Source: Schmidtea polychroa (lineage: Eukaryota). Taken from it: a DNA stretch of 64,000 nucleotides. How positions within the stretch are numbered: position 1 is the stretch's first letter; every line of letters starts with the position of its first letter. Shown here piece after piece: positions 1,016 through 36,955 of this stretch. The stretch spans positions 32,304,001-32,368,000 of the forward strand of contig CM097885.1 of NCBI GenBank assembly GCA_044892525.1, read 5' to 3'. Made by a program: the position numbers and the translations under genes. The notes under the pieces were generated by a model that had not been told where the DNA came from, ran no database searches, and saw only the letters and a list, made by a program, of their open reading frames with translations.

Positions 1016-1019
1016 GTGG

Positions 1020-3506: not shown

Positions 3507-3558
<52 letters not shown>

Positions 3559-7755: not shown

Positions 7756-7760
7756 ATGGT

Positions 7761-12714: not shown

Positions 12715-12769
<55 letters not shown>

Positions 12770-16897: not shown

Positions 16898-19852
16898 CTA
16901 TATCTTCAATGTATATATAGATATAGTAAGAAGTATAAATGAACAATATATAAAATCTTTATTATAAATTTCTTAATAAGCCAAATTCAAAGCTAATATA
17001 CAAAAGCTTAATGTTTAAACAAAAGGTTATTTTATTTAACTTAATAATTTTCAATAAACGTGTTTTAATAAAATCTCAAAACGCCTGTAAAATCACTACA
17101 TCAATTCTCACCTAACACATTTTACTGAATTTTCAAAATTAGAACGATAAATCAATCCCTTCACCATGTTTCTCTTATATCCGAAGTTACAAAAGCGTTC
17201 GGACGAAGTATAGAGACCAATATCGGTTTGTTTTCATTACTTCCGTCCGATCCATAATGAACACGATGTTCTATAGTTATGTAAACTTGACTGACAAAAT
17301 GTGAAAAACAGAATATTTTGCTTGATGAAATAAAATGAAGGCAATTTGTAAAATTATTTAAATCAAATATTGAAATGAATTCCTCAAAAAACTTAAAAAA
17401 ATTCTGTAAAATAATCCTTTTTCTTCATTCAATTTCTATTATTTAATTAATTAATTTTTTAAAAATCATTTCAATTTCAATACGGTTCGTGATACTTCCA
17501 ATTAATTTAATTAAAACGATAAATTTTGAAATCGTTTAAATGATTCATTATGAAAATAGTTCAAAATATATAATTATATATATAAATCGAAAAAATGATA
17601 CGAAATTTTAATAAAAATACTGAAACACCGATAAAAAATATAATTCAAGGACATTATTCTCTTCATCAGTCTGCTATCATAATTTGTGTCAAATGCAATA
17701 TATGGAAACAATAAAGATGTAATAGCATAGTTATAATTAAATGAGTTAATAAAATAATCTCAAAAAGTACTTTTCTGATTGGATGTAAATTGTAGGGGAT
17801 TGTGATTTATTCACCAAGGGCTCATAAAAGTCTTTCCCAATTATTATTAAAATTTTATAAAATTTGAAATCATTTGTTTCTACACATTCTTCTATACTAA
17901 ATAATATTACTCTAGCTTTCAATCGACAATATTTCTGAACCCATGTGCGGAAAAGACGGGAAGTCTCACCAATGTATGTAGCATTTAAACCATTAAATTA
18001 CTATTGGGGTTTGAGATTTATTTATTTAATGATTTTAAAGATTTTGACACTGTTTTAAATATATTGGAATAGCCTAATGATTTGATGACAGAAAACTTAA
18101 TTTTTAAAATGTTTCCAAATATGGAATAATTAAAACATGAGATATTATTGGTTCACCATGTTTAAATCAACCATAATTTTCAATGTTTTCATTAGTCAAT
18201 ATTTCTATAAAAGGCTTTGAGTACCCATCTTTATTCAACTCCACATCCAAACTAGGACACCAAGGAATGGTCGCACTTATGTCAAGTAGACTATGTGAGA
18301 CCAGTAATTAATATCAAATCAGCTCAACATGACAATACTAATCATAGAACAAAAGGCGAATATCTTACCCATCCTTAAAATCCTTAGACGAGCACATTAA
18401 ACTTAAGAATAAAGGCAGATCCCTGCTCAAATTTTAAAGGGTAACATTGAAACTTAGAACTAAACTTTCAAACTTAAAAATAGGGGTGGATTCCTGTCTA
18501 AAAACTTAATAAATAATTTTGAATAATGACTAGCTAAGATAGAAGAAATAAAACTTGAAAATAAGGGCGCACCTCTGTGCATATTTTGGAAGAGTAGTGT
18601 ACATAAAGACGACTATTATAAGGAGATCAAATATAGATTAAAAAGCTGGTAATCATGGTGTATTCCTATTCAAAGGGTTCGAGAGTAGTACTGATCGTGA
18701 CAAGAGGTTAAGACCAAATTATTAAAACTGAGAAATCAGGGTGGATCCCTGCTCAAAATCTTAAAGCTAACATCACACAATATCAGTATCATAAAATATT
18801 TAAACTCAAAACAGGGAAATGAGGGCGGAGCCCTGCGCGAAACAGGAATCGGGAATACCGAGCGATTGGGCCAACAATTATGATTAAACAACCTATACTC
18901 ATCTAAAAATCCAAACTACCGTTGACTAAGGTTGGTATGACAATAAATTAGTGCTGGATAATAACATAAACCACCAGTTTATCGTCGGTGTAGCTAATTC
19001 AACACATTTGACAATATTAAGCTTTATAACAGTTAATCAGAGTTGAAATTTGAATTTTAAAATAGAGAGTAATATTTAAAACCATAATTTTATTATTCTA
19101 CTGTTTTACATGGAACAGCACATCTGACAGATTGTGAGACGACGAAGATGCCCAAGGTAAATGTCCAACGATTGTGCAATGAAAATAGATCATGAGGTGG
19201 TCATCATCCACGATTGTACCACTAGGAGTCTAAAATTGAGGTAAACCGTTTTGACGGTTTTACTATAAAATCACGAAATCGGTTTCATTAAATTATGAAG
19301 TTATTCCACATGATAGTTGCACGATCTTGTTATAAAATATGAATGAATGTAGTAGATATGTTCCCTGTACGCTCCTCTGGATCAATAAATATGCATATTG
19401 ATCCCAGTAGGCAGAGGGGAAGAGGAAATCAGTATTTCCCAGACACAGTGTTCGCAAGCTGAAGGGAAGGAAAAAACCCACTTAAACATGCAGACTCGAC
19501 TGCTTGACGATTATAGTGTACAGGAATACGTTCACTTTTCGCGAGCATTCATTCATGCGACACATTGCCAACGTTGATTGCTCAACTGGTGTCGGATTTG
19601 TTGCGTCGGAGACGACACAAAAGAGTAAAATGTGGATTACCTGCGACCCACTAATACTAAAAAATATATATTTTGCATCTTTTATTTATACCATTTTAAA
19701 TATCTAAATTCTTGTTGTCAAATACTTTTTTTTGAATTTTTTAATACCTGAATCCCCAATATTTATTACATTTACCAACAAAATAATTTTCTACATTTAC
19801 ATTTTGTACTTTACTTTCAAATTTAGTATTTTGATCTTTGATATGACAAATT

Positions 19853-20718
19853 TGTTGGGGTTCAACAAGAGAGGCACAAAAATGAGGTGAAAATTGATAA
19901 AAACACCAAATTCAAAATAAAAATTTAAAGTACAAAATATTAATTAAAAAAATCAAAATTTTAAAAATGAATATTTTCTGGGGGAAACTGGTATGGGCGG
20001 ATGCTAAATAATGAGACGAGTTCAGCTATAATAAAATAAAATCAATGGGGGGTCCCTAAAAGGAATAAATTACAAAAAACAAAAATTAATTAAAATTAAT
20101 TAACTAATGGAAAACCCGAGCTAATGGGAAACCCGAGCTAATGGAGAACCCGAGCTAATGGGAAACCCGATACAATGGAAAACCCGAGCGAATTGAGAAA
20201 TCCAATTTCGGGAAGGCAATTAATTTAGCCGGATAAAAAGCGCCGTCAAAGGAAATGAGCAAATTCCCTGCAATTAAATTAGACCTCCAAGAGGAAGCCC
20301 GGGGGAAATAAAACCAAAAATAATTGGCAAAAATAAAGTCAATTAACAAGCGAGTATAAAAGCAACTGACAAGAAAACAAAATGCCAGTTGGTCGAAGAA
20401 AAGAAAACAGAAGTTGACGAGAGTGAAAAAGGAAATATCAAAGTTAGTCGAAAGTAAACCATATAAAAAAAAAAATCGAACGTACCAGAAAGGGATATCT
20501 CCCGTTGGAAGATCTACCCCTGCGTGAGATTTGTTGGCAATTGAAAAGTGCAGACAAAACCTGATTGTATCAAGTGTGAGTAAACTAATACAAGTGTAAA
20601 AGTGTAACTGCATCAGTGTCAATAAAGATTTTGTGTTGGGTTATTTGTTTATTTATTTATTTGGAAAAGAACACAAAGGAGTCAGACCGTAGTACCGACT
20701 TGCATTAAAAACCCAACA
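19853..20718 (+). repeat. 5' LTR (866 bp)
   Basis: TG...CA ends with a 7-bp terminal inverted repeat; candidate TATAAAA at 20355; AATAAA at 20621 followed by a GT-rich tract. Confidence 0.97.
20106..20190 (+). promoter_or_regulatory. Five 17-bp tandem repeats in the LTR (putative U3 enhancer array)
   Basis: aatgg(g/a)(a/g)aacccgagct-type unit x5; also present in the 3' LTR. Confidence 0.55.
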
Positions 20719-20722
20719 TATT

Positions 20723-20740
20723 TGGTGAGCCCGACGTGAT
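20723..20740 (+). promoter_or_regulatory. Primer-binding site, tRNA-Trp type
   Basis: TGGTGAGCCCGACGTGAT starts after a 4-nt gap from the LTR and matches the tRNA-Trp PBS of avian leukosis viruses (TGGTGACCCCGACGTGAT) at 17/18. Confidence 0.9.
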
Positions 20741-21186
20741 CAAAAGTCGGTGAAGATTTGTTGAAATTGTGAAAGTATTTGACTATAATATCGAATAATA
20801 CCGACGTGATCAAAAGTCGGTGAAGATTTGTTGAAATTGTGATAATATTTGAGTGATACCGAGGAATAAAAAGGTCGGTGAAAATTTGTTGAGATTAGTA
20901 AAGTATCAAAAAAAAACAATTTGGAAAAAGATAATAATAATTAAATAAATAAATATTGAAGTGAAACGTTTATTTGAAAGTGGTGAACATTATTCGAGAA
21001 TTATTAAAGTGGTGAATTTATTATTGAAGCAAAGTGGGAAAATTTGTAACGAGTGATTGTTGAAAAGTCAAAATTAAAACGAAAGGTAAATTTTGTAATT
21101 GTAATACTTTAAATTTTAGACGAGTAAAACCTGTGTTAACCAGATCATTTTATAAATTGAGAAGCCAAAAACTAGTAGAGAATATA

Positions 21187-24100
21187 ATGAGTACCCAAAG
21201 ACAAGTTAATAATACAAATAATAATGATGAAACACCGGTGTCCACAGTTTCTGTGGGGAATGCCAGGGAAGGCAATGATTATGCGAGTTGCCAAAAACTA
21301 CCTGTGGATCAGTACGGTGGAGATCCGCTGGAATTTGTCGATTTCATGGCAGATTACTATATGTATGCGACGGCCTATGGATGGAGCCAATCGATAATGG
21401 TGCAAAGATTACCGCTATACCTAAAAGGAGCAGCCAGAGAAGCGTGGCAACAAATTGATAAAAGAATAGTAGCAAATGACTGGACCAAGTTGAAAGACGC
21501 TTTAGCTACGAAATTAATCGGAGGGGATATCAAACGGATAATGCGACAGAAATTCTATAACCGCGTACAAAAGCCAGAGGAATCGGTAAGTGAGTTTGCT
21601 TATCATTTATCAACTCTTGCAGAGAAAGCGTTCGAAGTGAAACCAGAACAGGCCGAGATGGCAAAGCAGGTAAAAGAATTATTGCAGGATCAATTCTTGT
21701 CAGGAGTAAAGAAAGAAATTAAAAAGGCTCTATGCTATGTTGATTTTAATGACTTTGATGAATTGATCAAAAAGGCAATGAAAATTGAGCTAAATTTAAA
21801 AAGCACACAGTCAAAATCAGAATCGTTTGCAGTCATCTCAGGCGCAAGCGAAAGATCAGTAACCCCAATTAGAAACAATCGTTTTCAACAAACAAGTAGT
21901 CCATCACCAAAATTTAGATCCAAATTTGAGTCGAACAAGTCAACAGATATTCAAACAGATGGAAAGGAAGGTCCCATCCAATGTAGTCATTGCCAAAGGA
22001 TTGGACACCATGTTAACCAATGCTGGTTTAAAAATAGAGTACAGAGAAGCCCAATTCCGATTCAGTGTGATAATTGCCAAAGAATGGGACATGACAGCAA
22101 TCAATGCTGGTCCAAAAATAATGTACAACGGAGTCCAAGGCAAATGTGGCCTGATTGGTTAAAAGGAAATGGTGCGAAAAGTTTCACTAAAGCGAACATT
22201 AATGAGCCGAGAACTAATGATAACTTACAATGCTTTAATTGCGGAAGAAAAGGGCATGTGTCACGAAATTGTTTTGCCAGGTCAAGATCAACATCAACTT
22301 CACCATCACCGCAGAGAGATAAAGTAAATCTACAAGGACAAATTCAATGTCATTCATGCAGAAGTTATGGACACATGGCTAGATCATGTCCAAGAAATGT
22401 GGATAAATTCCAAAGGCCCATATTAAAGAAATCGATTAGGTTTCAGAGTGACAAACCGCAGATGGATAATGTAGCTTTTATTCAGCCAGATAATTTTAAT
22501 GAAAGAATTGAAAGCGAAGTGAGAGAAATGGGTCGACGTTTGGATCGATTGATGTCAAAGTTTGAATCAGAAGAGGACTACAATAATCACATGATGTATG
22601 AGTCGCAAGAGGAATTGAATGAAAAAGAGTCGAAAAGGAGAGTTATAAAAGATGATTTAGAAAGTGAAAAAGCAACAATGATAATGACCAGAATCGAAAA
22701 ACTAATTGGAAATAATGAAATAGAGTCGGCTAAAGTGATCAAATCGTTGAGAGAATTAAGTCAAATATCTTTGAGCATGAGAAAGATAAAAAGTGTAATT
22801 AGCTTGTGCGTTAACTACTATAATATGAATCCAAAGTATAAAGAAGAAATTAAAGAATTAATGAAAATATTCGGAAAAGCTTTGAGAGAGAAAACAGGGT
22901 TAGATTCCATCTTTGTGGAAGTAGTAAATGGGATTGATAAAAGTGTATTATGTTGTCGTTGTGAGGCAAATGATTGTGTAAATGATTTAAAGAATAAATT
23001 AAAAGAAAAAAAGGAAGGATGCATGATAGAGTTGAGATTTAATGAGAGATTGTTAGAAAATGACGAATTTTTGGTAGATTGTGGATTTATACCAGGGAGT
23101 ATAAATGAATTAAAAATGGAAAATGTAATTACTAGTGATGAAATAATGAGTAGTAAAATAATAGACAAAAGGAATTCAAGGGAGATATTAGAGGAATTAA
23201 ATGATGCGTTATACATTGGAGATGAAGATGAAATCGATGAGAAGTTACAGATTATTGAGAAATTAGAAATGGAGGACAACGATAAACTAAAAATAGTGAA
23301 TACAATACGACCATATTTACATGTGAAAACCAGATATGCCAAGTTATTAAGAAGTTTATTGCAAAGATTGGGCAAGGAGCTCAGAAAGGCAAGAGTAGAG
23401 TTAAAGCCATTTTTGATAGCATTAGATTATGAGGGATATGGCAAAACGGAATATGTAGACGAGCATTGGTGTGCAAAGGTCCGAAAATTGCGGAAGAGAG
23501 CGGCTGAAACGCTGGGAAAAGATGGAATTATTATAGTAATGTACAAAGGTGAAGAACTTGACGATGATGAATACCTATATGATTGTGGGTGTGTACCACA
23601 AGAGCTGGATGAAAACGGATATTTGATCCGAGATGGACGAGTGGGATATTTAGTGAACCATATAGTCGTAGTAAAAGGAGTGAGTTTAGAAGTAAATATT
23701 GAGTCTAACAAGCCTGACACAGAGGAACAAGATGAAAAAGTTAAGGGAAATAAAGAAATTGATGAAATCGTTAGTGATAATGAGCAAAAAGATCCTGATA
23801 ACAAAGATCAGTCCACGGAACCAGACGTACAAGGAGAGCTACTTGTACCTGAAGGCGAAATAAATGGTGAAATCAAAAATAAGAAAGTTAGAACTTTATA
23901 TGAAATAAAGAAATATTTAGTGAGGCTAGAACAGGACGTCGACGAAACTAAGAAAATGTTGAAACATCTCGTTAAAGCAGTATATCCAATGTTCGACATA
24001 GAAATAGAGGTAGAGGATGAACTGAAAGAAATAGTTAAAGAGATGAAGAATAGGCTTCCTGAAGTGATGCAGAAATTTGGCGAAGAGAATACATTCTGCG

Positions 24101-27100
24101 AGAGATCAGTAATTGAAAATTTGGCAAAAAATGAAATTAATAAGGAAGTTATAATAATAGCTTTAACTTATGTTGTTTTAGAAATTGGAACGCATACGTT
24201 CGCAAGGTCAGACAAGTTAGAAAATTTGATAGACATCGCTGCCCGGCTAGTAAACGAATATTTAATGAGCTGGGTAAACGAAAAAGGTGGTTGGAAAACA
24301 CTGTGTTCATCTCTAACAGAAAAGAAAAATGAGAAGCAAGAAATGAGTCCACCCCAAAGACGAGTAAATGAAAGAGTTAAGCCAGAACTAAGAAAAACTA
24401 TGATATTTCCATGGGCGATGTTTATGGTGATTACGTTTTGTGCAATAATTACACAGACATCATCTTTAGTTGCGTACGATTGTTCCCAAATTGAAATGGG
24501 AAAAGTTTATTCGGTAGTAGATATGTCGGAATGCCCAGGTGCGTATCCGAGCAGTTTAAAAATAGAAAATGACGTAAAATATTATGTGTATCAAGAGTCT
24601 GATCTGCGAAGAACTCAAGTGAGAGAGTGTATTGTCAAACATACAACATTTGTATTCTATTGTGGTAAATGGAGCCATACGTCACTCATAAAAATGCATG
24701 CGATACCTAGGCCAGTCGAGGTGCTTCCAGAAAACTGTCTAGCAGCATTTCAAACAGGAGAATTAAAAATAAGTCCAGAAATTCGTTTAAAGGCAAAATT
24801 GAACCATAGAATACGAGAAACAATAATTGTAAAGGGAGTAATGAAAGCAAATGGCGACTGTGAAGGTGAACCATATAAAATGAACGGTAAAATTATTCAG
24901 CAAACAGTGGTGCTAGAAGAATATCTCACGGAGTTGAGAGAGTTCGAAGGAGCTTTCGATGATGATACGGGAAAATTACAAACTCATCCATTCTGTAATA
25001 TGAAACAAACACATTGTCAAACAGGGGAATCGATTCTTGTTTATAATGTAGAAACAAATAAGTGTAATTTAGCGCACTTAAAAACTATGAACTTTAAAGA
25101 GCTAGTAGGAGAACAGTTTAGAGATAAACCAGATAATTTCAATATGAATTATAGACCAAATAATACCATTAAATCAACCCCAGTATGGACAAAGCAAATG
25201 GGAACAGTTATAATGTCTACGTTACCAGCAGATGGAATGCGATTTATAAAAAAGGAAATCACAAATAAATGTGGTCGAATGGTATATGTAACAAATTATA
25301 AAGGTGTTTACGTGCCTAGAAATGTTGTGGAAGAAGCAAAAATTAAAATTCACAGAGATGACATTAAACTTACTCATTATTTTAATAATAAAATTGATTA
25401 TTTGTTTCATTTTAGTCAAAACATCATGGAAAATGTATATAGAGAAATGATTCTGAACGATTGTAAGTTGAATAAAGAGATTCTCCGAAATCGGATGGCG
25501 ATGGCAATTACGAATCCAAATTTAGTAGCACCTATGCTAATATCAGAAAATGGAGTGTTTGCGAGAATATTTGGAGAAGCATTATACAGTTACAAATGCA
25601 AAGAAGTCACAGTGAAAATTGCCAAATACGAAAAATGTACGAATGAATTACCAGTAAGCTTTGGGGGAAAGGTACGATTTATGGAACCGATAACTAGAAT
25701 CTTGCTTGATGAACAAACTAAACCAAAACTTTTGCAATGCAATCGATTATTAGCCCCTTTATACCGATTAGCTACAGACTCATGGATAGCCTTACCAGAT
25801 TATCGTGGGGTCAAGACTCCAGACAAACTAGAATTAACAAATTTAGAATACCTGATAAATTTCACATCACTAAACAAAATGGCACAAATGGGCTTGTATG
25901 CAAGCGAAGATATCGAAGAAGCTCAAAGGAATTTGTTGTTTCCATCCAAAAAGGAACGGATAATTTCAGAAATGATTGACACAGTATTACCGAATGGAGA
26001 AGGAACAGTAAATTACGAAAATTTGCTAACACCTGATCATTTCAAACGAGCTACATATAAAACGATGGAAAAGATTTGGGGCAAGTTCATGTTTTTGGGA
26101 CAAGCATGTGCAGGTTTAATTGGAATTTACGTGATTATGATAACGGCAAAGGTGGTAGTGTCGCAAATGTTGTCAGTACATCGAATATACGCAATATCGG
26201 GATGGTCATGGAAATTAGTTATTGGTTGTATTCCATTGTTGGCTAGATTCTTTATTACAGATCATCAATTTAAAGAAATGGCAAGAGTAAGGGCACAATT
26301 AAGAAATGGCCGAAAAAGTGAGGAATCGACGTGTCAGTCGGAAGATAAAAACGACGATCATAATGATGATAACAACAACGGGGAATCGGAGTATAAATGC
26401 TTTCGAAAAAGTGTAATAAAGAGTAAAGTAGAGCCAGAGTCCAGGTTCTTGCTTGAACCAATGCCAAAATTAAGCGGGATTGATACTCTTAGTAGATGGT
26501 ATACCCCGACATTTAGACCAACAGCACCAATATATCCAAATGAACAATTAAAAGAAATGAAATCTGTAGATAATATCACAATCGAATTAGAGAAGATTGA
26601 ACCAACGAGTGCTGAAATTGAAAGAAAGAATATGCTTGGTCTACCATGCAGCTATGCACTAATGACAACAGTAGTAGGAGGAAAACAACCTCGAATAAAC
26701 ATACAGTTTAACAAGAGAAAAGTGGAAGCTTTATTAGACTCAGGCTCAAGTCATACTATAGTAGCGGAAAGTTTCTTGACGTATCAGGAGAAAGCCAAAA
26801 TAAAACCAACGAATCACATTATTAAATCAATGTCACATAATGCACTAAATATTGTTGGAAAATTAGAAGTTAAACTGATAATTGGAGAGCAAGAAATAAT
26901 TCATTGGGTATCAGTGATGAGAAAAAGTCCTGTAAAATGTCTAATTGGCATGGATGTCATGGAGCAACTACATGGAATCTCTCTTGATCTGAGAACTGGA
27001 AAACTAATAAAAGGACAAATGGGTGAAGTAGTGCCTGAAGTAGGAGAGGTATTTCTAAACCAAACATTGGAAGTACCACCAAAAAGCGAAGTAATCTACT

Positions 27101-29487
27101 ATGCAGATGTTATGAGGGTCTCAGATGAGGAGTACATATTTGAGCCAAATCAAAAGCTGGTTGAAAAATACGATGTGCCTATGTGTGATGAAGTAGTGAA
27201 AGTCCAAAATAAGTCAGTACCAGTTAGAATAGCGAATTATAGTGCAAGATCCGTTGAGATAAAACCCAAAACCAAATTGGGAAAATTAACAAAAATCAAA
27301 TCAGAGGAAGCTCAGAAGTTACCGAGAAATATAAAAATTTATAAAGAACCTCAGATCACAAGCAAAGATTTGACGGATTTGCAAAAACAAGAATTCGGTG
27401 CATTATTAAAGAAATATAGAAATGTATTTGCAAAACATGAGTATGATCTGGGACTCACTCAGGTGATTGAGCATGAAATACCATTACTCAACGAAACCCC
27501 AATAAAATTACGGCCGTACAGAATACCATACATACATCAGGAAGAAAGTGATCGGCAAATCAAAGCAATGAAAGAATTCAATATAATAAGAGATAGTTCC
27601 TCACCATTCTCATCATCAATAGTAGTAGTTAAAAAGAAGGACGGTGATTTAAGATTTTGTGTTGACTATCGAAAATTGAACCAAGTAACGAGAAAAGATA
27701 CATATCCTATTCCTGTTCCACAGGAAATGTTCGATCAGATGGGGGAGGTGCAATATTTTACGGTAATAGATCTTAATAAAGGATACAATCAATTTAAAGT
27801 CAAAGAGGAAGATAGAAGGAAAACTGCATTTTCAGATGGGAAGGGTCTATATGAGTTTAACGTGTTACCATTCGGATTAACAGGAGCACCTGCTACATTT
27901 CAGAGAGGTATGAATTTTGTTTTGCGCGATATACCACATGCATTAGTGTATATTGACGATATTATAATATTTTCGAATAGTTTTCAGGAACATTTGCAGG
28001 ATGTGGAAACAGTATTCAAGCGATTGTTAGAAGCAAACTTAAAAATAAAACCCTCCAAATGTGAATGGGGGAAATCTGAAGTCGTTTATGTGGGTCATAT
28101 CATTTCGCGTCGAGGTTTGCAACCAAATCCAGAAAATGTAGAAAAAATTGGGAAATATCCTATTCCCAAGGATGTAGATCAGGTTCGACAATTTCTGGGA
28201 TTAGCCAGTTATTACAGAAAGTTTATTAAAAGTTTCTCACACGTAGCACAACCTTTGAACATGTTATTGAAAAAGCAAGCAAAATTTAAATGGACAACAG
28301 CTCAGCAAGAAGCGTTTGATAAACTCAAAGAAAGCTTAATAAAACAGCCGATATTAAGATGTCCGAACTTTAAAAAACCGTTTATATTAATGACAGATGC
28401 CAGTAATTTCGCATTAGGCGCGGTATTAGGACAGCAAGTAGAAGGGGAAAAAGATCATGTAATTGCTTATGCCAGCAGATCATTGAAACCTCATGAAAAG
28501 AATTATTCAACAATCGAAAAGGAAACGTTAGCATTGGTATATGGGATAACTACTTTTCGACAATATCTAGTGGGCAGAAAATTTGTCGTCTTTACAGATC
28601 ACAATCCGTTACAATGGCTAATGAAGCACAGAGATTCGGCCAGTAAATTAATTAGGTGGTCAATTGCGTTACAAGAATATGATTTCGAGATAAAGTATCG
28701 TACAGGAAAATCAAATGCAAATGCGGATGCTATGTCGAGAATACCCGTAGAAAATAATGTTGATCAAGATGAGAAAAATTGCGAAAATACCATATTCTTG
28801 GCAATTAAAACGGTAAATAATATCGAAAAATTACAAGATGATCAGGAAAATGACGAGGAATTAAATCAGTTACGTCAACATGCTGTCTCAATCAAAAAGG
28901 AGAGTGACTGGAAACATATTGCCGAAGAGAACCATAAATACATTATTCATGATGGTTTGTTAAAATGTGTACAAAATGAAAATTTGTTAATTATTGTTCC
29001 GACAAAACATCGAAAAGCATTGATGTTGTTGTATCACGATGGAGCATTAGGAGGGCATTTATCAGCGCGAAAAACATTATCAAGATTGAAACAGAAATAT
29101 TATTGGAAAACGATGGAACAAGATGTCAGACAATGGTGTCATACGTGTGAGATATGCCTAACAAGACGAAATACGGGACGGAAAATAAAAGTTCCGCTTA
29201 AGCCTATGCCAGTGCCAAAGGCGCCAATGGAAATGACAGCAATGGACATCGTTGGTCCATTGCCGGAAACAACAAATGGCAACAAATACATTATCGTTTT
29301 TTGCGATTATCTTACTAAATGGCCAGAAGCTTATGCAATGCCAAATCAGAAAGCAGAAACAGTTGCGAAAATATTTGTGGAGAATATTATTTTTCGATAC
29401 GGAGCACCAAAGAAATTACTTACAGATCAAGAACAAATTTTCAGAGTGAATTATTTAAATCAATCACAGATTTATTTGGTATATTAA
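21187..29487 (+). CDS. Polyprotein part 1: Gag - UBL x2 - Bcl-2-like - envelope-like glycoprotein - PR - RT - RNase H - IN N-terminal half
   Basis: ORF 21133-29487, first ATG 21187. Four CX2CX4HX4C knuckles (21982-22389); LLDSGS protease (26731); LPFGL and YIDD (27949) RT; TDAS...DAMSR RNase H; HHCC and the first two Asp of integrase. Confidence 0.95.
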   Translation: MSTQRQVNNTNNNDETPVSTVSVGNAREGNDYASCQKLPVDQYGGDPLEFVDFMADYYMYATAYGWSQSIMVQRLPLYLKGAAREAWQQIDKRIVANDWTKLKDALATKLIGGDIKRIMRQKFYNRVQKPEESVSEFAYHLSTLAEKAFEVKPEQAEMAKQVKELLQDQFLSGVKKEIKKALCYVDFNDFDELIKKAMKIELNLKSTQSKSESFAVISGASERSVTPIRNNRFQQTSSPSPKFRSKFESNKSTDIQTDGKEGPIQCSHCQRIGHHVNQCWFKNRVQRSPIPIQCDNCQRMGHDSNQCWSKNNVQRSPRQMWPDWLKGNGAKSFTKANINEPRTNDNLQCFNCGRKGHVSRNCFARSRSTSTSPSPQRDKVNLQGQIQCHSCRSYGHMARSCPRNVDKFQRPILKKSIRFQSDKPQMDNVAFIQPDNFNERIESEVREMGRRLDRLMSKFESEEDYNNHMMYESQEELNEKESKRRVIKDDLESEKATMIMTRIEKLIGNNEIESAKVIKSLRELSQISLSMRKIKSVISLCVNYYNMNPKYKEEIKELMKIFGKALREKTGLDSIFVEVVNGIDKSVLCCRCEANDCVNDLKNKLKEKKEGCMIELRFNERLLENDEFLVDCGFIPGSINELKMENVITSDEIMSSKIIDKRNSREILEELNDALYIGDEDEIDEKLQIIEKLEMEDNDKLKIVNTIRPYLHVKTRYAKLLRSLLQRLGKELRKARVELKPFLIALDYEGYGKTEYVDEHWCAKVRKLRKRAAETLGKDGIIIVMYKGEELDDDEYLYDCGCVPQELDENGYLIRDGRVGYLVNHIVVVKGVSLEVNIESNKPDTEEQDEKVKGNKEIDEIVSDNEQKDPDNKDQSTEPDVQGELLVPEGEINGEIKNKKVRTLYEIKKYLVRLEQDVDETKKMLKHLVKAVYPMFDIEIEVEDELKEIVKEMKNRLPEVMQKFGEENTFCERSVIENLAKNEINKEVIIIALTYVVLEIGTHTFARSDKLENLIDIAARLVNEYLMSWVNEKGGWKTLCSSLTEKKNEKQEMSPPQRRVNERVKPELRKTMIFPWAMFMVITFCAIITQTSSLVAYDCSQIEMGKVYSVVDMSECPGAYPSSLKIENDVKYYVYQESDLRRTQVRECIVKHTTFVFYCGKWSHTSLIKMHAIPRPVEVLPENCLAAFQTGELKISPEIRLKAKLNHRIRETIIVKGVMKANGDCEGEPYKMNGKIIQQTVVLEEYLTELREFEGAFDDDTGKLQTHPFCNMKQTHCQTGESILVYNVETNKCNLAHLKTMNFKELVGEQFRDKPDNFNMNYRPNNTIKSTPVWTKQMGTVIMSTLPADGMRFIKKEITNKCGRMVYVTNYKGVYVPRNVVEEAKIKIHRDDIKLTHYFNNKIDYLFHFSQNIMENVYREMILNDCKLNKEILRNRMAMAITNPNLVAPMLISENGVFARIFGEALYSYKCKEVTVKIAKYEKCTNELPVSFGGKVRFMEPITRILLDEQTKPKLLQCNRLLAPLYRLATDSWIALPDYRGVKTPDKLELTNLEYLINFTSLNKMAQMGLYASEDIEEAQRNLLFPSKKERIISEMIDTVLPNGEGTVNYENLLTPDHFKRATYKTMEKIWGKFMFLGQACAGLIGIYVIMITAKVVVSQMLSVHRIYAISGWSWKLVIGCIPLLARFFITDHQFKEMARVRAQLRNGRKSEESTCQSEDKNDDHNDDNNNGESEYKCFRKSVIKSKVEPESRFLLEPMPKLSGIDTLSRWYTPTFRPTAPIYPNEQLKEMKSVDNITIELEKIEPTSAEIERKNMLGLPCSYALMTTVVGGKQPRINIQFNKRKVEALLDSGSSHTIVAESFLTYQEKAKIKPTNHIIKSMSHNALNIVGKLEVKLIIGEQEIIHWVSVMRKSPVKCLIGMDVMEQLHGISLDLRTGKLIKGQMGEVVPEVGEVFLNQTLEVPPKSEVIYYADVMRVSDEEYIFEPNQKLVEKYDVPMCDEVVKVQNKSVPVRIANYSARSVEIKPKTKLGKLTKIKSEEAQKLPRNIKIYKEPQITSKDLTDLQKQEFGALLKKYRNVFAKHEYDLGLTQVIEHEIPLLNETPIKLRPYRIPYIHQEESDRQIKAMKEFNIIRDSSSPFSSSIVVVKKKDGDLRFCVDYRKLNQVTRKDTYPIPVPQEMFDQMGEVQYFTVIDLNKGYNQFKVKEEDRRKTAFSDGKGLYEFNVLPFGLTGAPATFQRGMNFVLRDIPHALVYIDDIIIFSNSFQEHLQDVETVFKRLLEANLKIKPSKCEWGKSEVVYVGHIISRRGLQPNPENVEKIGKYPIPKDVDQVRQFLGLASYYRKFIKSFSHVAQPLNMLLKKQAKFKWTTAQQEAFDKLKESLIKQPILRCPNFKKPFILMTDASNFALGAVLGQQVEGEKDHVIAYASRSLKPHEKNYSTIEKETLALVYGITTFRQYLVGRKFVVFTDHNPLQWLMKHRDSASKLIRWSIALQEYDFEIKYRTGKSNANADAMSRIPVENNVDQDEKNCENTIFLAIKTVNNIEKLQDDQENDEELNQLRQHAVSIKKESDWKHIAEENHKYIIHDGLLKCVQNENLLIIVPTKHRKALMLLYHDGALGGHLSARKTLSRLKQKYYWKTMEQDVRQWCHTCEICLTRRNTGRKIKVPLKPMPVPKAPMEMTAMDIVGPLPETTNGNKYIIVFCDYLTKWPEAYAMPNQKAETVAKIFVENIIFRYGAPKKLLTDQEQIFRVNYLNQSQIYLVY
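22909..23670 (+). other. Two ubiquitin-like domains within the polyprotein
   Basis: IFVEVVNG..SVLCCRCEANDCVNDLKNKLKEK..IELRFNERLLENDEFLVDCGFIPGSINEL aligns by eye to the ubiquitin pattern. The second copy is KVRKLRKRAAETLGKDGIIIVMYKGEELDDDEYLYDCG. Confidence 0.7.
24016..24315 (+). other. Bcl-2-family-like domain within the polyprotein
   Basis: BH2-like YLMSWVNEKGGWKTL, preceded at Bcl-2-like spacing by a degenerate BH1 region (NEINKEVIIIALTY in place of NWGRIV). Confidence 0.7.
24400..26256 (+). other. Envelope-like glycoprotein (chuvirus G-like, class III fusion type) embedded between Gag and protease
   Basis: Signal peptide MIFPWAMFMVITFCAIITQTSS|LVAYDC; Cys-rich ectodomain (VRECIVKHTTFVFYCGKWSH, GDCEGEPY, IFGEALYSYKCKEVTV, KCTNELPVSFGG, FMEPITRIL); hydrophobic segments at ~26086-26178 and ~26194-26256. 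Confidence 0.8.
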
Positions 29488-31376
29488 AACTTAGTACCTC
29501 ACCATATCATCCACAAACAGATGGTCTAGTTGAAAGATTTAATGGGACACTAATTAATATGATATCATCCTATGTAAATAGGAAACAAAAGGATTGGGAT
29601 TTATTCATTAAACCATGCCTATTTGCATACCGGAATGCAGTAAATGAAAGCACTGGAGAAACACCCTTTTATCTCATGTATCTACGGCGAAGCAATATGC
29701 CAGTCGATCTAGAATTTCAGTCACCTATTTCCCAATATATGGATGTGTCAGATTATAAAATAGCTATGCATGAAAGACTACAGTCAGTATGGATCCAAGC
29801 TGGACTTAACATAAGGCATCATCAAGAAGCGTATAAAGAATGCTATGATAAACGCGCACGGGCGCATGACATTAAAATTGGAGATCTCGTGTATATAAAC
29901 AAACCAGAACCAACAAAAGGCTTGTCAACGAAATTGCAACGACCGTTTAAAGGACCATATCTAGTGTGTGATACGACAGAGACTAACTTAAAATTGCGTC
30001 CACAAAACAATAAAAAGGCTGGGACAATCATCGTTCATGTAAACAGATGCAAGAAGATAATAGAAGATGAATCACGTTATCCATTGAGATCAAAACCAAA
30101 TAAAGATGCAGGGAACCCAGTAATTAAACAAAAGTTTACAAAAAACCCTGCTCCATTGAGTTACATCAATAAAGTTTTATTGATTACAACAGTAATGATT
30201 ATCAATATAATGTCAGTAAATGCAGTGAGAGTATTCCCGTTATATGCAACTAATACAGTTGTATTATTAGACAAAGTTCATATTTATTCAACATGTACTC
30301 AAATAGTTTGGGTTTATTATGCTGGAGGAGCAGAAGAAATAGAGATAGATAATCTAATAAACTATTTCGAACCCCCAATAAAATTGAACAGCACCAAAAA
30401 TATTTATGTGGCTAGACAATTAACAATGAATTATGAATACCCTTGGTTAATTACGCAATTGGATTCGAAAAGTAATAATACAAAAATACAAAATCTTATA
30501 CGTATTAATATTTGGACAAAGAGATTACATAATCGAGTATCAATTGAACCACTGGTAAATGGAATTGACATATATTGGGAACCCCAGGAATCCCAACAAG
30601 TAAAAGCAGTTTTTCAAAATTATGCGATAGATACATTGAATAGCAGAAAACCCTTTATAAAGTATGCAAATTTAAAATTACATCATAACTATAATATTCT
30701 GATTCATTATTATGAAAAATCTTTATATGAAAACGGAACTGAAATTGATAGTCAATGGATCAGAATACACTCTAGTCAACATATGATACGATTAGTTAAT
30801 GAAACAAATCGGGTTACTTTTCATATTTTCAATCAATTAGTGAACGTTACCCGACAAGCGGAGCCCAATCAAAAAGCTATTTTATATTATTATGGAAAAA
30901 TTCAATCGATATTAAATGAAAAAAATAAATCTCAAATATTAACTTTTCGTCAACGTTCACCAATATCAACGTCAAAATTTGTGTTCATTAAAATAAAATA
31001 CTATAGACGTTCTCTATTTTCAAATTTATGGCAATTAACATTAGTGGAAAATAAAATTGTGCAAATTCCATCTATTAACTCGCAGTATGGAAATCGAAAC
31101 AAATCAAATCAGTCCAACCGAACCCCTAGCTCTGTCAACGTAATCATCTTTTCTAGCATCAATGAGTCAATGACTAATAACGAAACCATATCGTCATTAA
31201 AAACTGACAGTGAAATTGTGTGTGTCACATTATTAATAACTACTCTCATTATAACAATCTCTCTTATTATTCTCATTATCATTGTGCTAATTGAATTTCG
31301 AACAATACCCAAACCTTCTACGAATCGATCCGAGATTGCGAGACCTTGGATCGTTTATGAAGAAACATTTGTGTAG
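29431..31376 (+). CDS. Polyprotein part 2 (after 1-bp frameshift): IN catalytic core and C-terminus, then a second signal peptide and a type I TM glycoprotein
   Basis: Frame of ORF 29319-31376. TNFQSELF...SPYHPQTDGLVERFN completes D-35-E; GPY motif; hydrophobic KVLLITTVMIINIMSVNA (30171-30224); ~10 N-x-S/T sequons; TM at 31215-31293. Confidence 0.9.
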
Positions 31377-31805
31377 TAAGACATAAATACTTTGCATGCA
31401 AAATTGATAAAGTAGTAGTAGCAATATAGTACAAATATTTTATGGATATTATTAATATTTTATTTCATTATGGATATGATCAATAATTCATTTTATTTTA
31501 CTTGTGAATCTGCACTTTTCAATGTCAACGGAAAGAATCAATTTGATTGGTTAGCGCTGTGTTAAGGGGGAGAGAAAAACGGGGTTAAGGGAATTTTCGT
31601 AAGGGTATTAAAAGAGGGTAAAATCCATTAAACTCCATTAATTTTGAGAAAAAAAAAATATCAACAATTAACTAAACGGTAATTATTATTATTTATTTAT
31701 ATAACTAGTCGGTGGGACGGTATCCTTTGGGTACCCCATCTCAACCCTAGTGTTAAAATTAAATTAACTTCAAATTTTAATTATATAACTATTGTAGAAA
31801 AAAAA

Positions 31806-33275
31806 ATGGAACAAATACAATTGGCAAGGTCGACCTACGACAGCTACATCAAAATGAAGAACAATCATGCCGGACAAAAAGTATACCGGATCAACGACAA
31901 TCTCCAAATCCCAAATTATTTAAGAATTGATGACCGAAAAATGAAGATCCAAATGTTTACGATCATGAGGATGTCAAAATTGCGATTAGCAGAAGAAGTC
32001 GAGATGTCAAGGAAAGAAGAATATCATCTACATGTGATCAAGGGTACCGTTGAGGTACTGACGAATGACAACAAAGTGTGTTGGGAACTAAAAAAATTTA
32101 CGTCGTGGAAGCTGCAGAGAGACTTCATGTGGAGAACGTTACGAGCAGCGAATGAAGAAACAACCATGGTAGTGGAAATCAGAATCGAAAATGAAGCGAA
32201 CGAAGTTCCGCAGATGCAGCCAAGTGCAAGAGAAGATCCAATGTTAACGAAAATTTCGAAAGAAATGTTGAAAAGGAAAATGTCGTTTCTCAGAAAGGAA
32301 ATGGATTTGGAAGAAATCCGCAACAGAATATTGTTTATTGATGCAGAATATGGCACGTCTGAACAAGGAAAAATGGTCCCTCTAGCACTAGCGATTATGA
32401 ATTATTATGGAAAAATAATAAAGAATATATACTTGACTCCAAGAGGAAAAATTCGCCATTTTAATTCAAGGATTCACGGAATCACAGAAGTAGCTAGCAG
32501 GAATCAATGCGATCAATATGTGGCAACAAAGGACATCCAACAATTGACAGTTGGCAAGATACTAGTGGGCCATGATTTACATGCAGAATTACAATATTTG
32601 GGAATATGGATTGAGCAATTATATGGCATTCGTGATTTGGCAGCGGCACCAGCACTCCAAAACAGGGGAGTAACCAGGAAAGGAGAATGGTTCAAATTAC
32701 AAACCGTAGTGAGAGAAATATGTGGAGAAGAGACACAAATTGGTGTGCATTCGGGTCTAGAGGATGTGAAGAGCATTCGCAAGGTATATCAGAGAGTGGA
32801 AAATCAATGGATTGACGATATACCAATGCCCAAAAACCTACCATCAAAGAAATATTCGTTGGAGGAATATAAAAAACTTCGAGAGGTACCATCAGCATCA
32901 ACTGCAATAGCGGACAAAGTGGCACAAATTCTGGTTGACGATGCAATGGAAGCAGAACAAATTGACTTGACAAGCGAGGAGAATGTGGAGATGGAGACGG
33001 AAAATCCATTAATTCCATTAAAGTGGGCCACCGAATCGTTTTTGGAAATTTCACAAGAATGTGTTTCAGTAATGATAAGTGTTTCGATGGTAAGAATACA
33101 CCCAACACTTGAGTATGGTCCAATGCCCGAATGTCGACAAGCGAGAAAAAGGAAAAACACTTCAAATATTGATGTTGGGGAGACTGTAACCATCGATGGG
33201 GTAATCTATGAACGAGAAGAAACAATAATACGGTATCGGCATGGAACCAAACAATTGGAAATAAAAATGAACTAA
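31806..33275 (+). CDS. DEDDh 3'-5' exonuclease (ISG20/REX4-like) accessory protein inside the LTR element
   Basis: 489-aa intact ORF: ExoI FIDAEYG, NSRIHGIT, ExoII KILVGHDLHAELQYL (Glu at the usual Asp), IRDLA, ExoIII HSGLEDVKS; basic RKRK near the C-terminus. Confidence 0.88.
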   Translation: MEQIQLARSTYDSYIKMKNNHAGQKVYRINDNLQIPNYLRIDDRKMKIQMFTIMRMSKLRLAEEVEMSRKEEYHLHVIKGTVEVLTNDNKVCWELKKFTSWKLQRDFMWRTLRAANEETTMVVEIRIENEANEVPQMQPSAREDPMLTKISKEMLKRKMSFLRKEMDLEEIRNRILFIDAEYGTSEQGKMVPLALAIMNYYGKIIKNIYLTPRGKIRHFNSRIHGITEVASRNQCDQYVATKDIQQLTVGKILVGHDLHAELQYLGIWIEQLYGIRDLAAAPALQNRGVTRKGEWFKLQTVVREICGEETQIGVHSGLEDVKSIRKVYQRVENQWIDDIPMPKNLPSKKYSLEEYKKLREVPSASTAIADKVAQILVDDAMEAEQIDLTSEENVEMETENPLIPLKWATESFLEISQECVSVMISVSMVRIHPTLEYGPMPECRQARKRKNTSNIDVGETVTIDGVIYEREETIIRYRHGTKQLEIKMN

Positions 33276-33413
33276 ATTAATATGTATATATATATAATAT
33301 TTATAAAAAATAAATAATGTTGAACTCGCGTTGTCTCAGTTATTAATTGGTAGCTCATCAGTTAAACCCCATAATTAAAAAAAATGTATAAATAATAAAT
33401 AAAACTTTTAATA

Positions 33414-33480
33414 ACAACATACACATTCCCAATTGTTGGAGTTTGGCTACCCTGGACAACAATTGGAAATGTGTGGTTGT
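33414..33480. other. Long hairpin in the 3' non-coding region of the retroelement
   Basis: acacattcccaattgttg (33421-33438) pairs 17/18 with caacaattggaaatgtgt (33457-33474), extended by acaac/gttgt. Confidence 0.75.
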
Positions 33481-34080
33481 CAGTAGTCATTAATTTTTCC
33501 ATTGAAATCGTTTATGAATAAATGGAACTATATCGTATCTAAATCTACATTTGGTTATAAGTTTCTCTGTGTATCTCGGTGTCTCTATATCTATATTTAT
33601 TTATCCAAAACCATTTATTTATATCTAGGCATAAAATTTGAGTATAGACTATTTTGCTTTGATAACTAAATATAATTTTATAAAATTGGCCCATGACAAT
33701 TGAATTTCAAATAGTGTAAAAAAAAAAAAAAAAAAAAAAAAAATCAACAAAATTATATTAACTAATATCTACATACTTCATGGTTTCATATTCGCTTGAA
33801 TTTCAAATAGTGTAAAAAAATCAACAAAATTATATTAATTAATATCTACATACTTCATGGTTTCATACTCGCTTCGAAATCAACAATATTCATGTTTCGA
33901 CGCACCATTTTAAGTTGGAAATAGATTTTCAATTTCCAGTTAATACAGTGACAATTGCGGTAATTAATTTTAAGTATATGTTTCAATTTATTGTATTAAA
34001 TCATCAAAGAATCTGAAAGTTATTTTACACAATATAATAAATAATCGATATAAGTTTATATTAACAAAAAATTTATCCAC

Positions 34081-34817
34081 CTGCATAAGAGGACGATCTT
34101 GAGGTAATAATAAATAATTCTTTGCTTCATCAAATAATCAATATAAGTTTATATTAACAAAAAAAAAAAAAAAAATTTTTATCCACCTGCATAAGAGGAC
34201 GATCTTGAGGTAATAATAAATAAAGTGTACTTGAAAATTATGATGTGTAAATTTATCAGCAATGGTTAATAAGTCATTACAAGCATGAGTATCAGCAAAG
34301 GCTTGGATACCTAAGCAATTAGATGGATCAAGCTGCTGTTTTAAAAATTCACAACAAACATCTTAAATTTCTGATAATTGTAATAAACAAGCAGCTGGTA
34401 GTAAACACTGTAGATTCCATTCTTCAATAACAATTTGAGATATATAACAAAATTCTACCAATGCTTCAACAGCACGTTCATCGATATCCCTTAATGTTAC
34501 CTAATATCGTTTGATAAAGATAACCAAATAGTTAATTACTTCATTTTGTAGTGATTCAGATAATTCGCCAGTAAACATAGCTTTAAAATAATGACTACAT
34601 GCAGATAACACAATTCTATGGACTAAGATTTTTTTTGTTGACCAACAATCAAGGCTACGTCACATAATTCGCCGTGTTTTCTTAGTTGATTAATGGATTC
34701 CAAAGTAATTTTTGGGTGCTTCTCAGAGAAGTAGCATAATTTGTTAAACGGATTAGAATTGAATGCACCCCCAGAACATTGATCTCCAGTAATAATCTTT
34801 TTCTCATTTTGTTGCAC
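34081..34817 (-). pseudogene. KLHL20: Captured, disabled and rearranged KLHL20-like (BTB-BACK) gene fragment
   Basis: [48 protein letters not shown]|intron|[70 protein letters not shown], plus [16 protein letters not shown]. Frameshift at ~34630, TAA stop at 34363-34365, 39-nt GT-AG intron at 34501-34539. Confidence 0.9.
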
Positions 34818-35300
34818 ATCACAATAGTTAATAGAAAATGGTTAAAAATATGAAGAAATAAATAAAATCCCTTACCTATTAATAAATTATTCACCAACCA
34901 TTCAAATCAAACTACGAGTCGTACCGAGGATTTCCGCGGCTTCGGTGCGTTCGGTGGCTTCTGATTGGCTTTCTCCTTATCTCGTGTAAGAACTGAAAGA
35001 AGAAAGAAATAAATCTATTTTGCGAAACAAAATTAAATTACCCTTGAATTAGTTGTCCAAATTGTAGATATGAAAAAAATTCAATTTGATTGACCATATC
35101 AATAATTTCTGCAATTAGATAGAATCAGTGGGTAATGCAAATATGAAATTGAGAAAGGAATTCAAACAATAATTTGATAATATTTAATTGATTGCCCTCA
35201 ACTGCAATTAAATTAGTTGCTCATTAGTAAAATGAGTTCGAGATTTACAAAATTGCAAGAAAAAGAAAAATTGATATAATAATAATAATTATTATTATTG

Positions 35301-35343
<43 letters not shown>

Positions 35344-35556
35344 AAAAAAATCATAATATAATAATTAGATATAATAATTAGATATAATAATTATTGCTAT
35401 TATTGTTATTATCGTTATTATTGTTATCGGTAGGAATTATTGTTATTATTATCGGTAGTATTATTATCGTCATTATTATTGTTATTAGTAACATTATTAT
35501 TTATAATGGTAAATTAGACTTATTATATACATGCAGATTCGAGGTCGAATCTAAAT

Positions 35557-35569
35557 AAAAGGGGGGAGA
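35557..35569 (+). promoter_or_regulatory. Polypurine tract
   Basis: aaaaggggggaga just upstream of the 3' LTR. Confidence 0.9.
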
Positions 35570-35571
35570 TA

Positions 35572-36436
35572 TGTTGGGGTTCAACAAGAGAGGCACAAAA
35601 ATGAGGTGAAAATTGATAAAAACACCAAATTCAAAATAAAAATTTAAAGTACAAAATATTAATTAAAAAAATCAAAATTTTAAAAATGAATATTTTCTGG
35701 GGGAAACTGGTATGGGCGGATGCTAAATAATGAGACGAGTTCAGCTATAATAAAATAAAATCAATGGGGGGTCCCTAAAAGGAATAAATTACAAAAAACA
35801 AAAATTAATTAAAATTAATTAACTAATGGAAAACCCGAGCTAATGGGAAACCCGAGCTAATGGAGAACCCGAGCTAATGGGAAACCCGATACAATGGAAA
35901 ACCCGAGCGAATTGAGAAATCCAATTTCGGGAAGGCAATTAATTTAGCCGGATAAAAAGCGCCGTCAAAGGAAATGAGCAAATTCCCTGCAATTAAATTA
36001 GACCTCCAAGAGGAAGCCCGGGGGAAATAAAACCAAAAATAATTGGCAAAAATAAAGTCAATTAACAAGCGAGTATAAAAGCAACTGACAAGAAAACAAA
36101 ATGCCAGTTGGTCGAAGAAAAGAAAACAGAAGTTGACGAGAGTGAAAAAGGAAATATCAAAGTTAGTCGAAAGTAAACCATATAAAAATAAAATCGAACG
36201 TACCAGAAAGGGATATCTCCCGTTGGAAGATCTACCCCTGCGTGAGATTTGTTGGCAATTGAAAAGTGCAGACAAAACCTGATTGTATCAAGTGTGAGTA
36301 AACTAATACAAGTGTAAAAGTGTAACTGCATCAGTGTCAATAAAGATTTTGTGTTGGGTTATTTGTTTATTTATTTATTTGGAAAAGAACACAAAGGAGT
36401 CAGACCGTAGTACCGACTTGCATTAAAAACCCAACA
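35572..36436 (+). repeat. 3' LTR (865 bp)
   Basis: Matches the 5' LTR; the only difference spotted by eye is in an A-tract (A11 vs AAAAATAAAA). Confidence 0.97.
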
Positions 36437-36955
36437 AATTAAAAATATGTAACTGTTCTCTCAACCTAACCGACATATTAATGTACCTTTTGCAATTGGT
36501 TATATTTCCAAACCTTCGCCAGCAATTCCAGTAATAAACGATAATATTAATACATATTTACTTATTATTAATAATTTATTTCTTACAAAATATTTACAAA
36601 AAGCAAAATATTATAATATCAGTAATATCACCTTTTTATTTTACCTTTTGATATTTCATTTATTTGCATTATGATAATAGATCAAATATTAATTTTTGTT
36701 GCAAAGGAAAATATATTTTTGACATATAGTAAAAAAAAGTAAAACAAATACCCGGTAAGATTTTTAAAATTTTCAAATGGTCTGAAAATTTTTTTATAAT
36801 AAACAAAAAGAATATTTGAAAAAATAAAATTTGAAAAGCATTTGATTGGCTGTGTGGAAATGAAAAGAGTGCAGAAATATATTTAATCTTACTTCTAGCA
36901 GATTGAATTTGGAAATGGTGTATCGTCGAATGCTAGTAAATCAGTAATCAAAAAC

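What the first reader, a model, noticed from the sequence alone, without database searches (positions are those of the whole stretch)
19853..36436. Young, complex 'retrovirus-like' Ty3/gypsy element: one ~3,400-aa polyprotein with env between gag and pol, plus host-modulating cargo and an exonuclease
Seen: intact LTR/PBS/PPT/TSD and a single reading frame (one 1-bp break) in the order Gag-UBL-UBL-Bcl2-signal/glycoprotein/TM-PR-RT-RH-IN-signal/glycoprotein/TM, followed by a DEDDh exonuclease ORF. Established: retroviruses and errantiviruses carry env as a separate ORF downstream of pol. Inference: this is an independently evolved enveloped retroelement using a flavivirus/alphavirus-like membrane-threaded polyprotein and carrying anti-apoptotic and nuclease accessory functions. 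I do not recognise this architecture as a described family, but cannot exclude that it is known.
Basis: partly seen in the sequence, partly recalled or inferred. Interest (0 to 1): 0.95.

Follow-up and report, generated by a model that had tools for sequence, protein, structure and literature searches.

The report
Enveloped planarian retroelement, compact Burro relative
A young, multi-copy, retrovirus-like jumping element of a planarian flatworm whose odd one-protein layout (envelope gene between capsid and polymerase, plus ubiquitin-like and Bcl-2-like cargo) is already published, but which also carries a second surface protein and an RNA-trimming enzyme that I could not find described.

Summary
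In detail: a 16.6-kb Ty3/gypsy element with near-identical LTRs, tRNA-Trp primer site, PPT and 4-bp TSD. Its polyprotein reads Gag-(helical+UBL)x2-Bcl-2-like-signal/gB-type Env/TM-PR-RT-RH-IN-signal/3xFN3/TM; a separate ISG20-like DEDDh exonuclease ORF follows. The frame break is private to this copy (11 of 11 others open there; 22 of 102 scored copies hold a frame of at least 3,400 aa). The headline architecture is known: PMC6431247 describes it for planarian Burro elements (Ubi/SUMO, BCL2, env in frame between gag and pol), and PMC13524379 catalogues GAG-ENV-POL gB-type errantiviruses in Schmidtea; this Env is about 78% identical to Smed_errantivirus_1 (counted by eye). The scan had earlier noted a giant Burro element elsewhere in this genome; it is homologous across UBL, Bcl-2, Env and Pol. 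Not found in the papers searched: a three-FN3 membrane protein with a conserved PDZ-type tail fused behind integrase, the DEDDh ORF, and a captured antisense host BTB-Kelch fragment. Anti-apoptotic activity is unproven (BH1 NWGR lost; no BIR). Verdict: new variant of a known kind.

The parts
19849..19852 (+). 5' target-site duplication AATT (repeated at 36437-36440)
   Evidence: 4-bp TSD in 4 of 4 copies examined
19853..20718 (+). 5' LTR (866 bp, TG...CA, internal 17-bp tandem repeat)
20723..20740 (+). Primer-binding site complementary to host tRNA-Trp(CCA) 3' end
21187..29487 (+). Polyprotein, first frame (2,766 aa); frame changes inside the integrase core in this copy only
21274..22389 (+). 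Gag: capsid-like domain and four CCHC zinc knuckles
   Evidence: Retrotrans_gag 2e-7, zf-CCHC 7e-11
22651..23643 (+). Two tandem modules, each an ~85-aa helical domain plus a ubiquitin-like domain
   Evidence: alignment A3; profile hits ISG15/ubiquitin/NEDD8
23920..24318 (+). Bcl-2-like domain; BH2 tryptophans kept, BH1 NWGR lost
24397..24465 (+). Internal signal/anchor before Env; may double as the Bcl-2 domain's tail anchor (inferred)
   Evidence: hydropathy; 47-75 aa behind BH2 in 6 of 6 sequences with a Bcl-2 domain
24466..26166 (+). gB/chuvirus-type (class III) envelope ectodomain and TM
   Evidence: PF24664 1.4e-86; 11 invariant Cys in A6; about 78% identical to Smed_errantivirus_1 over 251 aa, counted by eye
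26683..29436 (+). PR, RT, RNase H, integrase N-terminal half, catalytic motifs present
29436..30068 (+). Integrase C-terminal half (second frame), GPY motif
30156..31376 (+). Signal, three FN3 domains, TM and 25-aa tail ending ETFV (class I PDZ-type motif, label recalled), fused behind integrase
   Evidence: AlphaFold pLDDT 75.7; Foldseek fibronectin FN3 3e-10; VIA Z 9.7, rmsd 5.3, 166 aligned; tails
31806..33275 (+). Separate 489-aa ORF: unassigned N-terminal domain, ISG20/REXO4-like DEDDh exonuclease (32316-32822), acidic C-terminus
   Evidence: dN/dS 0.15 between two variants
33840..34843 (-). Captured, broken fragment of a host BTB-BACK (Kelch-like) gene, antisense, intron retained, about 96% identical to host locus L049
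35557..35571 (+). Polypurine tract
35572..36436 (+). 3' LTR (865 bp)

Best explanation
A recently active family (100+ copies) of planarian GAG-ENV-POL, gB-type Ty3/gypsy 'errantivirus', a compact relative of the giant Burro elements. SHOWN by sequence: one ~3,400-aa polyprotein with two internal signal peptides and two TM anchors; tRNA-Trp priming; 4-bp TSD; all cargo under purifying selection. INFERRED from hydropathy and established retroelement biology: the chain is threaded through the ER twice, so Gag-UBL-Bcl-2 and Pol stay cytosolic while Env and the FN3 protein face the lumen; signal peptidase and the element's protease cut it apart. Gag and Pol are thereby tethered to Env-bearing membrane and co-packaged in equal amounts, and particles bud with the class III fusogen to move between cells. 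INFERRED, weaker: the FN3 protein is an adhesion/attachment or junction-targeting factor (PDZ-type tail); the Bcl-2 fold ends up tail-anchored on the Env signal and modulates host death or immune signalling; the DEDDh nuclease trims RNA and may blunt RNA-based defence. Odds: identity as this known class about 0.93; threading and processing about 0.8; real cell-to-cell infectivity about 0.5; anti-apoptotic Bcl-2 activity about 0.35.
For: 39 scored copies of the UBL-Bcl2-Env stretch at 99-100%; 22 of 102 scored copies with an open frame of at least 3,400 aa; 11 of 11 other copies open across this copy's break. Same order in sister families L037/L038 and L039/L040, and Gag-to-PR part in L041; L037's Env is 246 of 251 identical to Smed_errantivirus_2 (by eye). 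Giant element L043: UBL profile 5e-9, Bcl-2 profile 2e-11, Env 33-36%, Pol 42%. dN/dS against the sister family: Env 0.07, Bcl-2 0.20, UBL 0.33/0.28, FN3 0.36, RT-RH 0.02. FN3 fold; T-x-V/L ends in 5 of 5 complete family tails against 163 of 4,116 background frames. Published architecture: PMC6431247, PMC13524379.
Against: No particle, protein or infectivity data; PMC13524379 itself says transmission via env remains elusive for most elements. BH1 NWGR is absent in 6 of 6 Bcl-2-like domains, and the protective activity reported for Burro1 is assigned to a RING+BIR protein (second-hand, PMC13465017) that this element lacks. P0001 has UBL and Env but no Bcl-2 domain, and the DEDDh ORF is missing from sister copies L038 and L040, so both are dispensable. 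dS is near saturation (0.9-2.3), so the ratios are rough. No furin-type R-x-R/K-R site in either glycoprotein. A second short hydrophobic stretch follows the Env TM; if it spans the membrane the proposed topology fails. No RT tree against reference families was built.
Confidence: 0.72

Rival explanations
1. The element replicates only inside stem cells. Env and the FN3 protein are kept as membrane scaffolds for assembly, or serve the host cell (fusion, adhesion), and the cargo is maintained because it benefits host cells, as reported for Burro1.
For: Host benefit reported for Burro1 (second-hand via PMC13465017); no infectivity data; no furin site.
Against: Env ectodomain has dN/dS 0.07 and 11 invariant cysteines across 7 sequences of 38-83% identity, as expected of a working fusogen; this family lacks the BIR protein behind Burro1's benefit.
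Confidence: 0.22
2. Same element, but the Bcl-2 fold is not anti-apoptotic: it is a repurposed helical adaptor or matrix-like spacer between capsid and envelope (as some poxviral Bcl-2-like proteins are signalling inhibitors; recalled). This competes only with the cargo step of the best explanation.
For: BH1 NWGR lost in 6 of 6; fixed position directly before the Env signal; only 21-54% identity among families.
Against: BH2 W..GGW invariant and all top PDB matches are anti-apoptotic Bcl-2/Bcl-xL; some viral Bcl-2 proteins bind BH3 without canonical BH1 (recalled).
Confidence: 0.5
3. One-off chimera or misassembly.
For: This copy has a frame break; the 3' region is mosaic among copies (DEDDh ORF comes in variants 78-100% identical).
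Against: Dozens of dispersed 99% copies with the same order, matching TSDs, sister families with the same layout, and contigs of independent public runs covering the stretch.
Confidence: 0.01

Closest known systems
Smed_errantivirus_1 and _2, GAG-ENV-POL HSV/gB-type errantiviruses of Schmidtea mediterranea (PMC13524379, supplementary files 1-2)
   Same: Ty3/gypsy Pol, gB-type Env flanked by signal and TM, Env between Gag and Pol, many near-identical copies (45 and 215 listed). Env about 78% identical to _1; sister family L037 98% identical to _2 (both by eye).
   Different: Not identical to any of the six Smed Env fragments listed. The paper's main text has no occurrence of 'Bcl', 'fibronectin', 'exonuclease', 'polyprotein' or 'Burro', and lists tRNA type 'none' for the Smed rows, whereas a tRNA-Trp PBS is shown here.
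Burro / GYPSM1 giant gypsy-like LTR retrotransposons of planarians (PMC6431247 section 7; Grohme 2018, Jurka 2007 and Lee 2026 not seen)
   Same: Single ORF Gag-CCHC-Ubi/SUMO-like-BCL2-Env(mononegavirus-like)-PR-RT-RH-IN; direct homology to a giant element in this genome.
   Different: 16.6 kb and ~3,400 aa against over 30 kb and 4,873 aa; four CCHC; no MATH, BIR or ankyrin hit; has a C-terminal 3xFN3-TM protein and a DEDDh ORF that the section does not mention. Whether it equals Burro-2, -3 or -4 could not be checked.
Bdelloid rotifer Juno/Vesta LTR retrotransposons with exonuclease ORF3 (PMC5408684)
   Same: Separate 3' ORF encoding a DEDD-superfamily 3'-5' exonuclease, family-specific; DEDD changed to DEED there, and the motif-II position aligned to ISG20L2 Asp is Glu here.
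   Different: Theirs is DEDDy/RNase D-like and replaces env; this one is DEDDh/ISG20-REXO4-like and sits beside an env.
Chuvirus-glycoprotein-carrying BEL/Pao elements of mosquitoes (PMC7642597, search listing only)
   Same: Retroelement with a chuvirus/gB-type class III glycoprotein.
   Different: BEL/Pao backbone, different host; cargo not compared.

Membership tests
Ty3/gypsy LTR retrotransposon | LTRs (TG...CA), PBS, PPT, short TSD | tested here: met
Ty3/gypsy LTR retrotransposon | Pol order PR-RT-RH-IN with catalytic motifs and GPY | tested here: met
Ty3/gypsy LTR retrotransposon | RT tree placement among reference Ty3/gypsy clades | not tested
   No reference RT set was at hand; only an 8-row Env tree of fetched relatives
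GAG-ENV-POL HSV/gB-type errantivirus (PMC13524379) | gB-type Env ectodomain between a signal and a TM, with conserved cysteines | tested here: met
   PF24664 1.4e-86; hydropathy; A6; about 78% to Smed_errantivirus_1 by eye
GAG-ENV-POL HSV/gB-type errantivirus (PMC13524379) | Env located between Gag and Pol | tested here: met
GAG-ENV-POL HSV/gB-type errantivirus (PMC13524379) | Multiple near-identical intact copies | tested here: met
Burro clade architecture (PMC6431247) | One ORF with Gag-CCHC, Ubi/SUMO-like, BCL2-like, Env, Pol in that order | tested here: met
   homology to giant element L043
Burro1 / GYPSM1 itself | Over 30 kb, ~4,900-aa ORF | tested here: not met
   16,584 bp, ~3,400 aa
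Burro1 / GYPSM1 itself | MATH, BIR and ankyrin domains | tested here: not met
   No Pfam hit in the three ORFs at E<=1; no other ORF of 100 aa or more on the coding strand
Burro1 / GYPSM1 itself | dUTPase-like domain between PR and RT | tested here: inconclusive
   A ~200-aa spacer is present and lies inside the continuous alignment to L043, but no dUTPase hit
Burro-2/-3/-4 or a Repbase/Dfam family | Sequence identity to the named consensus | not testable with these tools
   Primary papers not held; no Repbase/Dfam access
Anti-apoptotic Bcl-2 protein | BH1 NWGR groove motif | tested here: not met
   absent in 6 of 6; fold-level resemblance remains
ISG20/REXO4-like DEDDh exonuclease | Catalytic D-E-D-H-D set | tested here: inconclusive
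   D179, E181, H315, D320 invariant; motif-II Asp aligns to E261 in 4 of 4, with D257 nearby; activity untested

The most novel reading that the evidence does not exclude
These elements are infectious two-glycoprotein retroviruses in all but name: a class III fusogen plus a separately released three-FN3 attachment protein whose conserved PDZ-binding tail steers budding to cell junctions, both delivered from one twice-threaded polyprotein, with an ISG20-like nuclease acting against host RNA defence.
Probability: 0.22. Interest if true: 0.78.

Novelty: new variant of a known kind. Interest (0 to 1): 0.42.

Why it matters
The core architecture is published, so this is not a new class. What is added: (1) a second, FN3-type membrane protein fused behind integrase, conserved across at least three families in this genome and distant relatives elsewhere, with a PDZ-type tail; it is a concrete candidate for how gB-type errantiviruses attach to or pass between cells, which PMC13524379 leaves open; (2) an ISG20-like nuclease under purifying selection that swaps between copies; (3) a recent antisense host-gene capture that could feed small RNAs against the host gene. 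The host is an RNAi-tractable planarian and the family is young and abundant, so these ideas can be tested by knock-down and proteomics.

Tried and rejected
Single-sequence AlphaFold of the post-integrase protein failed (pLDDT 37); the 9-row alignment worked. Sequence searches of that protein against Pfam and PDB gave nothing significant (best FN3 hints E 0.25-0.29). ESM Atlas gave FN3 leads at 0.90 with low recognition, a lead only. Search for longer integrase-FN3 fusions in the protein database found none of 1,091 candidates, weak evidence. Env alone or as profile hit no solved fusogen. Complex prediction Env with FN3: no answer, score 0.00, alignments not used; no evidence either way. Sequencing runs: no RNA holder listed; contigs of two runs guessed to be RNA cover 30 of 30 and 26 of 30 bins, and one holds an intron-skipping contig of the host Kelch-like gene, but DNA carry-over of a high-copy repeat is not excluded, so expression is not claimed; no splice to the DEDDh ORF among the 15 joints shown (45 hidden). 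L042 held only a RING fragment, not the giant polyprotein. Not-in-print claims rest on four library searches and term searches in PMC13524379 and PMC6431247; Grohme 2018 and Lee 2026, the papers most likely to annotate these domains, were not held, and their figures and supplements may already show them. Only 1 copy each of four related families was examined, in part. A 5-bp TSD was rejected. Species and assembly were not determined.
Full report
Observation. The element spans 19853-36436 exactly. The LTRs (866 and 865 bp, TG...CA) differ by one mismatch and one 1-base gap in a single A-run. The TSD is 4 bp here and in 3 of 3 other copies checked. The PBS matches the 3' end of host tRNA-Trp(CCA): a pattern built from it found tRNA genes that ARAGORN calls Trp. 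The long ORF starts at 21187, changes frame inside the integrase core at about 29,420-29,440 and ends at 31376, about 3,397 codons in span. A separate 489-aa ORF follows at 31806-33275.

Not a chimera. The genome (G000, 781 Mb) holds at least 39 scored copies of the UBL-Bcl2-Env stretch at 99-100% identity. Of 102 scored copies of the C-terminal protein, 22 lie in an open frame of at least 3,400 aa, 18 of them exactly 3,437 stop to stop. In 11 of 11 other copies examined the integrase frame is open where this copy breaks, and 8 of 11 are open over the whole stretch tested. Counts are lower bounds because only the best candidates are scored.

Domains. Gag: PF03732 and four CCHC knuckles. Two tandem modules of a helical domain plus a UBL; their profile hits ISG15 (2e-5), ubiquitin and NEDD8. 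A Bcl-2-like domain whose profile hits Bcl-2/Bcl-xL at 1.4e-3; BH2 is kept, BH1 NWGR is lost in 6 of 6 sequences. An internal signal, then a PF24664 glycoprotein (1.4e-86) and a TM. PR, RT, RH and IN carry their catalytic motifs. Behind IN come a second signal, an ectodomain, a TM and a short tail. With a 9-row alignment AlphaFold modelled the ectodomain at mean pLDDT 75.7 as three beta-sandwiches; Foldseek matched fibronectin FN3 repeats (3e-10) and VIA-align gave Z 9.7, rmsd 5.3, 166 aligned. Relatives exist in two sister families here (35% and 55%) and in 6 library proteins; P0007 begins with the same integrase-end motif, so the fusion is older than this family. All 5 complete tails end in T-x-V/L, against 163 of 4,116 background frames; reading this as a class I PDZ-binding motif is from recall, and the rows are related, not independent. 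The last ORF is ISG20/ISG20L2-like (4e-11; Atlas 0.94), with relatives at 32-33% on short public contigs. It is absent from the sister copies L038 and L040. All cargo shows dN/dS well below 1, with near-saturated dS.

What is known. [quoted passage not shown] PMC13524379 (passages, section 6 part 1 and supplement rows) reports GAG-ENV-POL gB-type errantiviruses in Nematoda, Bryozoa and Platyhelminthes and lists six from Schmidtea mediterranea. By eye, the window's Env matches Smed_errantivirus_1 at 197 of 251 residues, and sister family L037 matches Smed_errantivirus_2 at 246 of 251; this also points to a Schmidtea-type host, which I did not pin down further. Exonuclease cargo has a precedent in rotifer LTR elements, though of the DEDDy type (PMC5408684, passages). 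Burro1's reported benefit to stem cells is assigned to a RING+BIR protein (second-hand, PMC13465017 passages), which this element lacks. PMC8532177 (passages) shows BURRO1 and BURRO4 are PIWI targets. Grohme 2018 and Lee 2026 were not held, so I cannot tell whether this family is Burro-2, -3 or -4.

Mechanism. Shown: anatomy, copy number, youth, selection. Inferred: two signal/TM pairs thread the chain through the ER twice, leaving Gag-cargo and Pol cytosolic and both glycoproteins luminal; signal peptidase and PR release the parts; tethering couples capsid, enzymes and envelope at one membrane. The Env signal lies 47-75 aa after BH2 in 6 of 6 sequences, where a cellular Bcl-2 has its tail anchor, so one hydrophobic segment may serve both roles. 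Class III fusogens often rely on a partner for attachment (established for herpesvirus gB; recalled), which makes the FN3 protein the natural candidate. Infectivity, anti-apoptosis and nuclease activity are all untested.

Verdict. It files as a GAG-ENV-POL gB-type errantivirus of the Burro-like clade, not as Burro1 (size, MATH/BIR/ankyrin not met). The FN3-TM protein with its PDZ-type tail, the DEDDh ORF and the antisense host-gene capture were not found in the searches made and are the residual novelty. New variant of a known kind; interest 0.42.

Noticed in passing
window 33840-34843 (-): Captured fragment of a single host BTB-BACK (Kelch-like) gene, antisense to the element, intron kept, about 300 bp deleted internally, about 96% identical to host locus L049; carried by many copies (40 candidates scored). 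Could yield small RNAs against the host gene.
   Followed up: partly
window 31806-33275: The DEDDh ORF exists in variants from 78% to 100% protein identity among copies whose Env is 99% identical, pointing to module swapping; it is tandemly repeated at G000:C2:45.48 Mb.
   Followed up: partly
window 18-15458: A very large nested inverted repeat (arms 77-99% complementary, ~1-kb spacer at 7765-8765) built of short tandem arrays; related ends recur near 59,200-60,500. No long ORF.
   Followed up: no
G000:C4:55.02 Mb onward (L048): Tandem array of tRNA-Trp genes with a 284-bp period; 890 pattern matches genome-wide.
   Followed up: no
G000, genome-wide: A high-copy ~392-aa frame with a BIR domain (150 of 309 candidates scored), likely the Burro1-type IAP; and many Bcl-2 hits in short frames with one internal stop, perhaps the spliced Polinton Bcl-2 of note e1-7879924.
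   Followed up: no
window 38766-39827 (+): Intronless 353-aa frame that looks like a rhodopsin-type GPCR by eye.
   Followed up: no
P0001, P0002: Distant relatives from another public source with Env in frame before three protease-like repeats; P0001 has the helical+UBL module but no Bcl-2 domain.
   Followed up: partly
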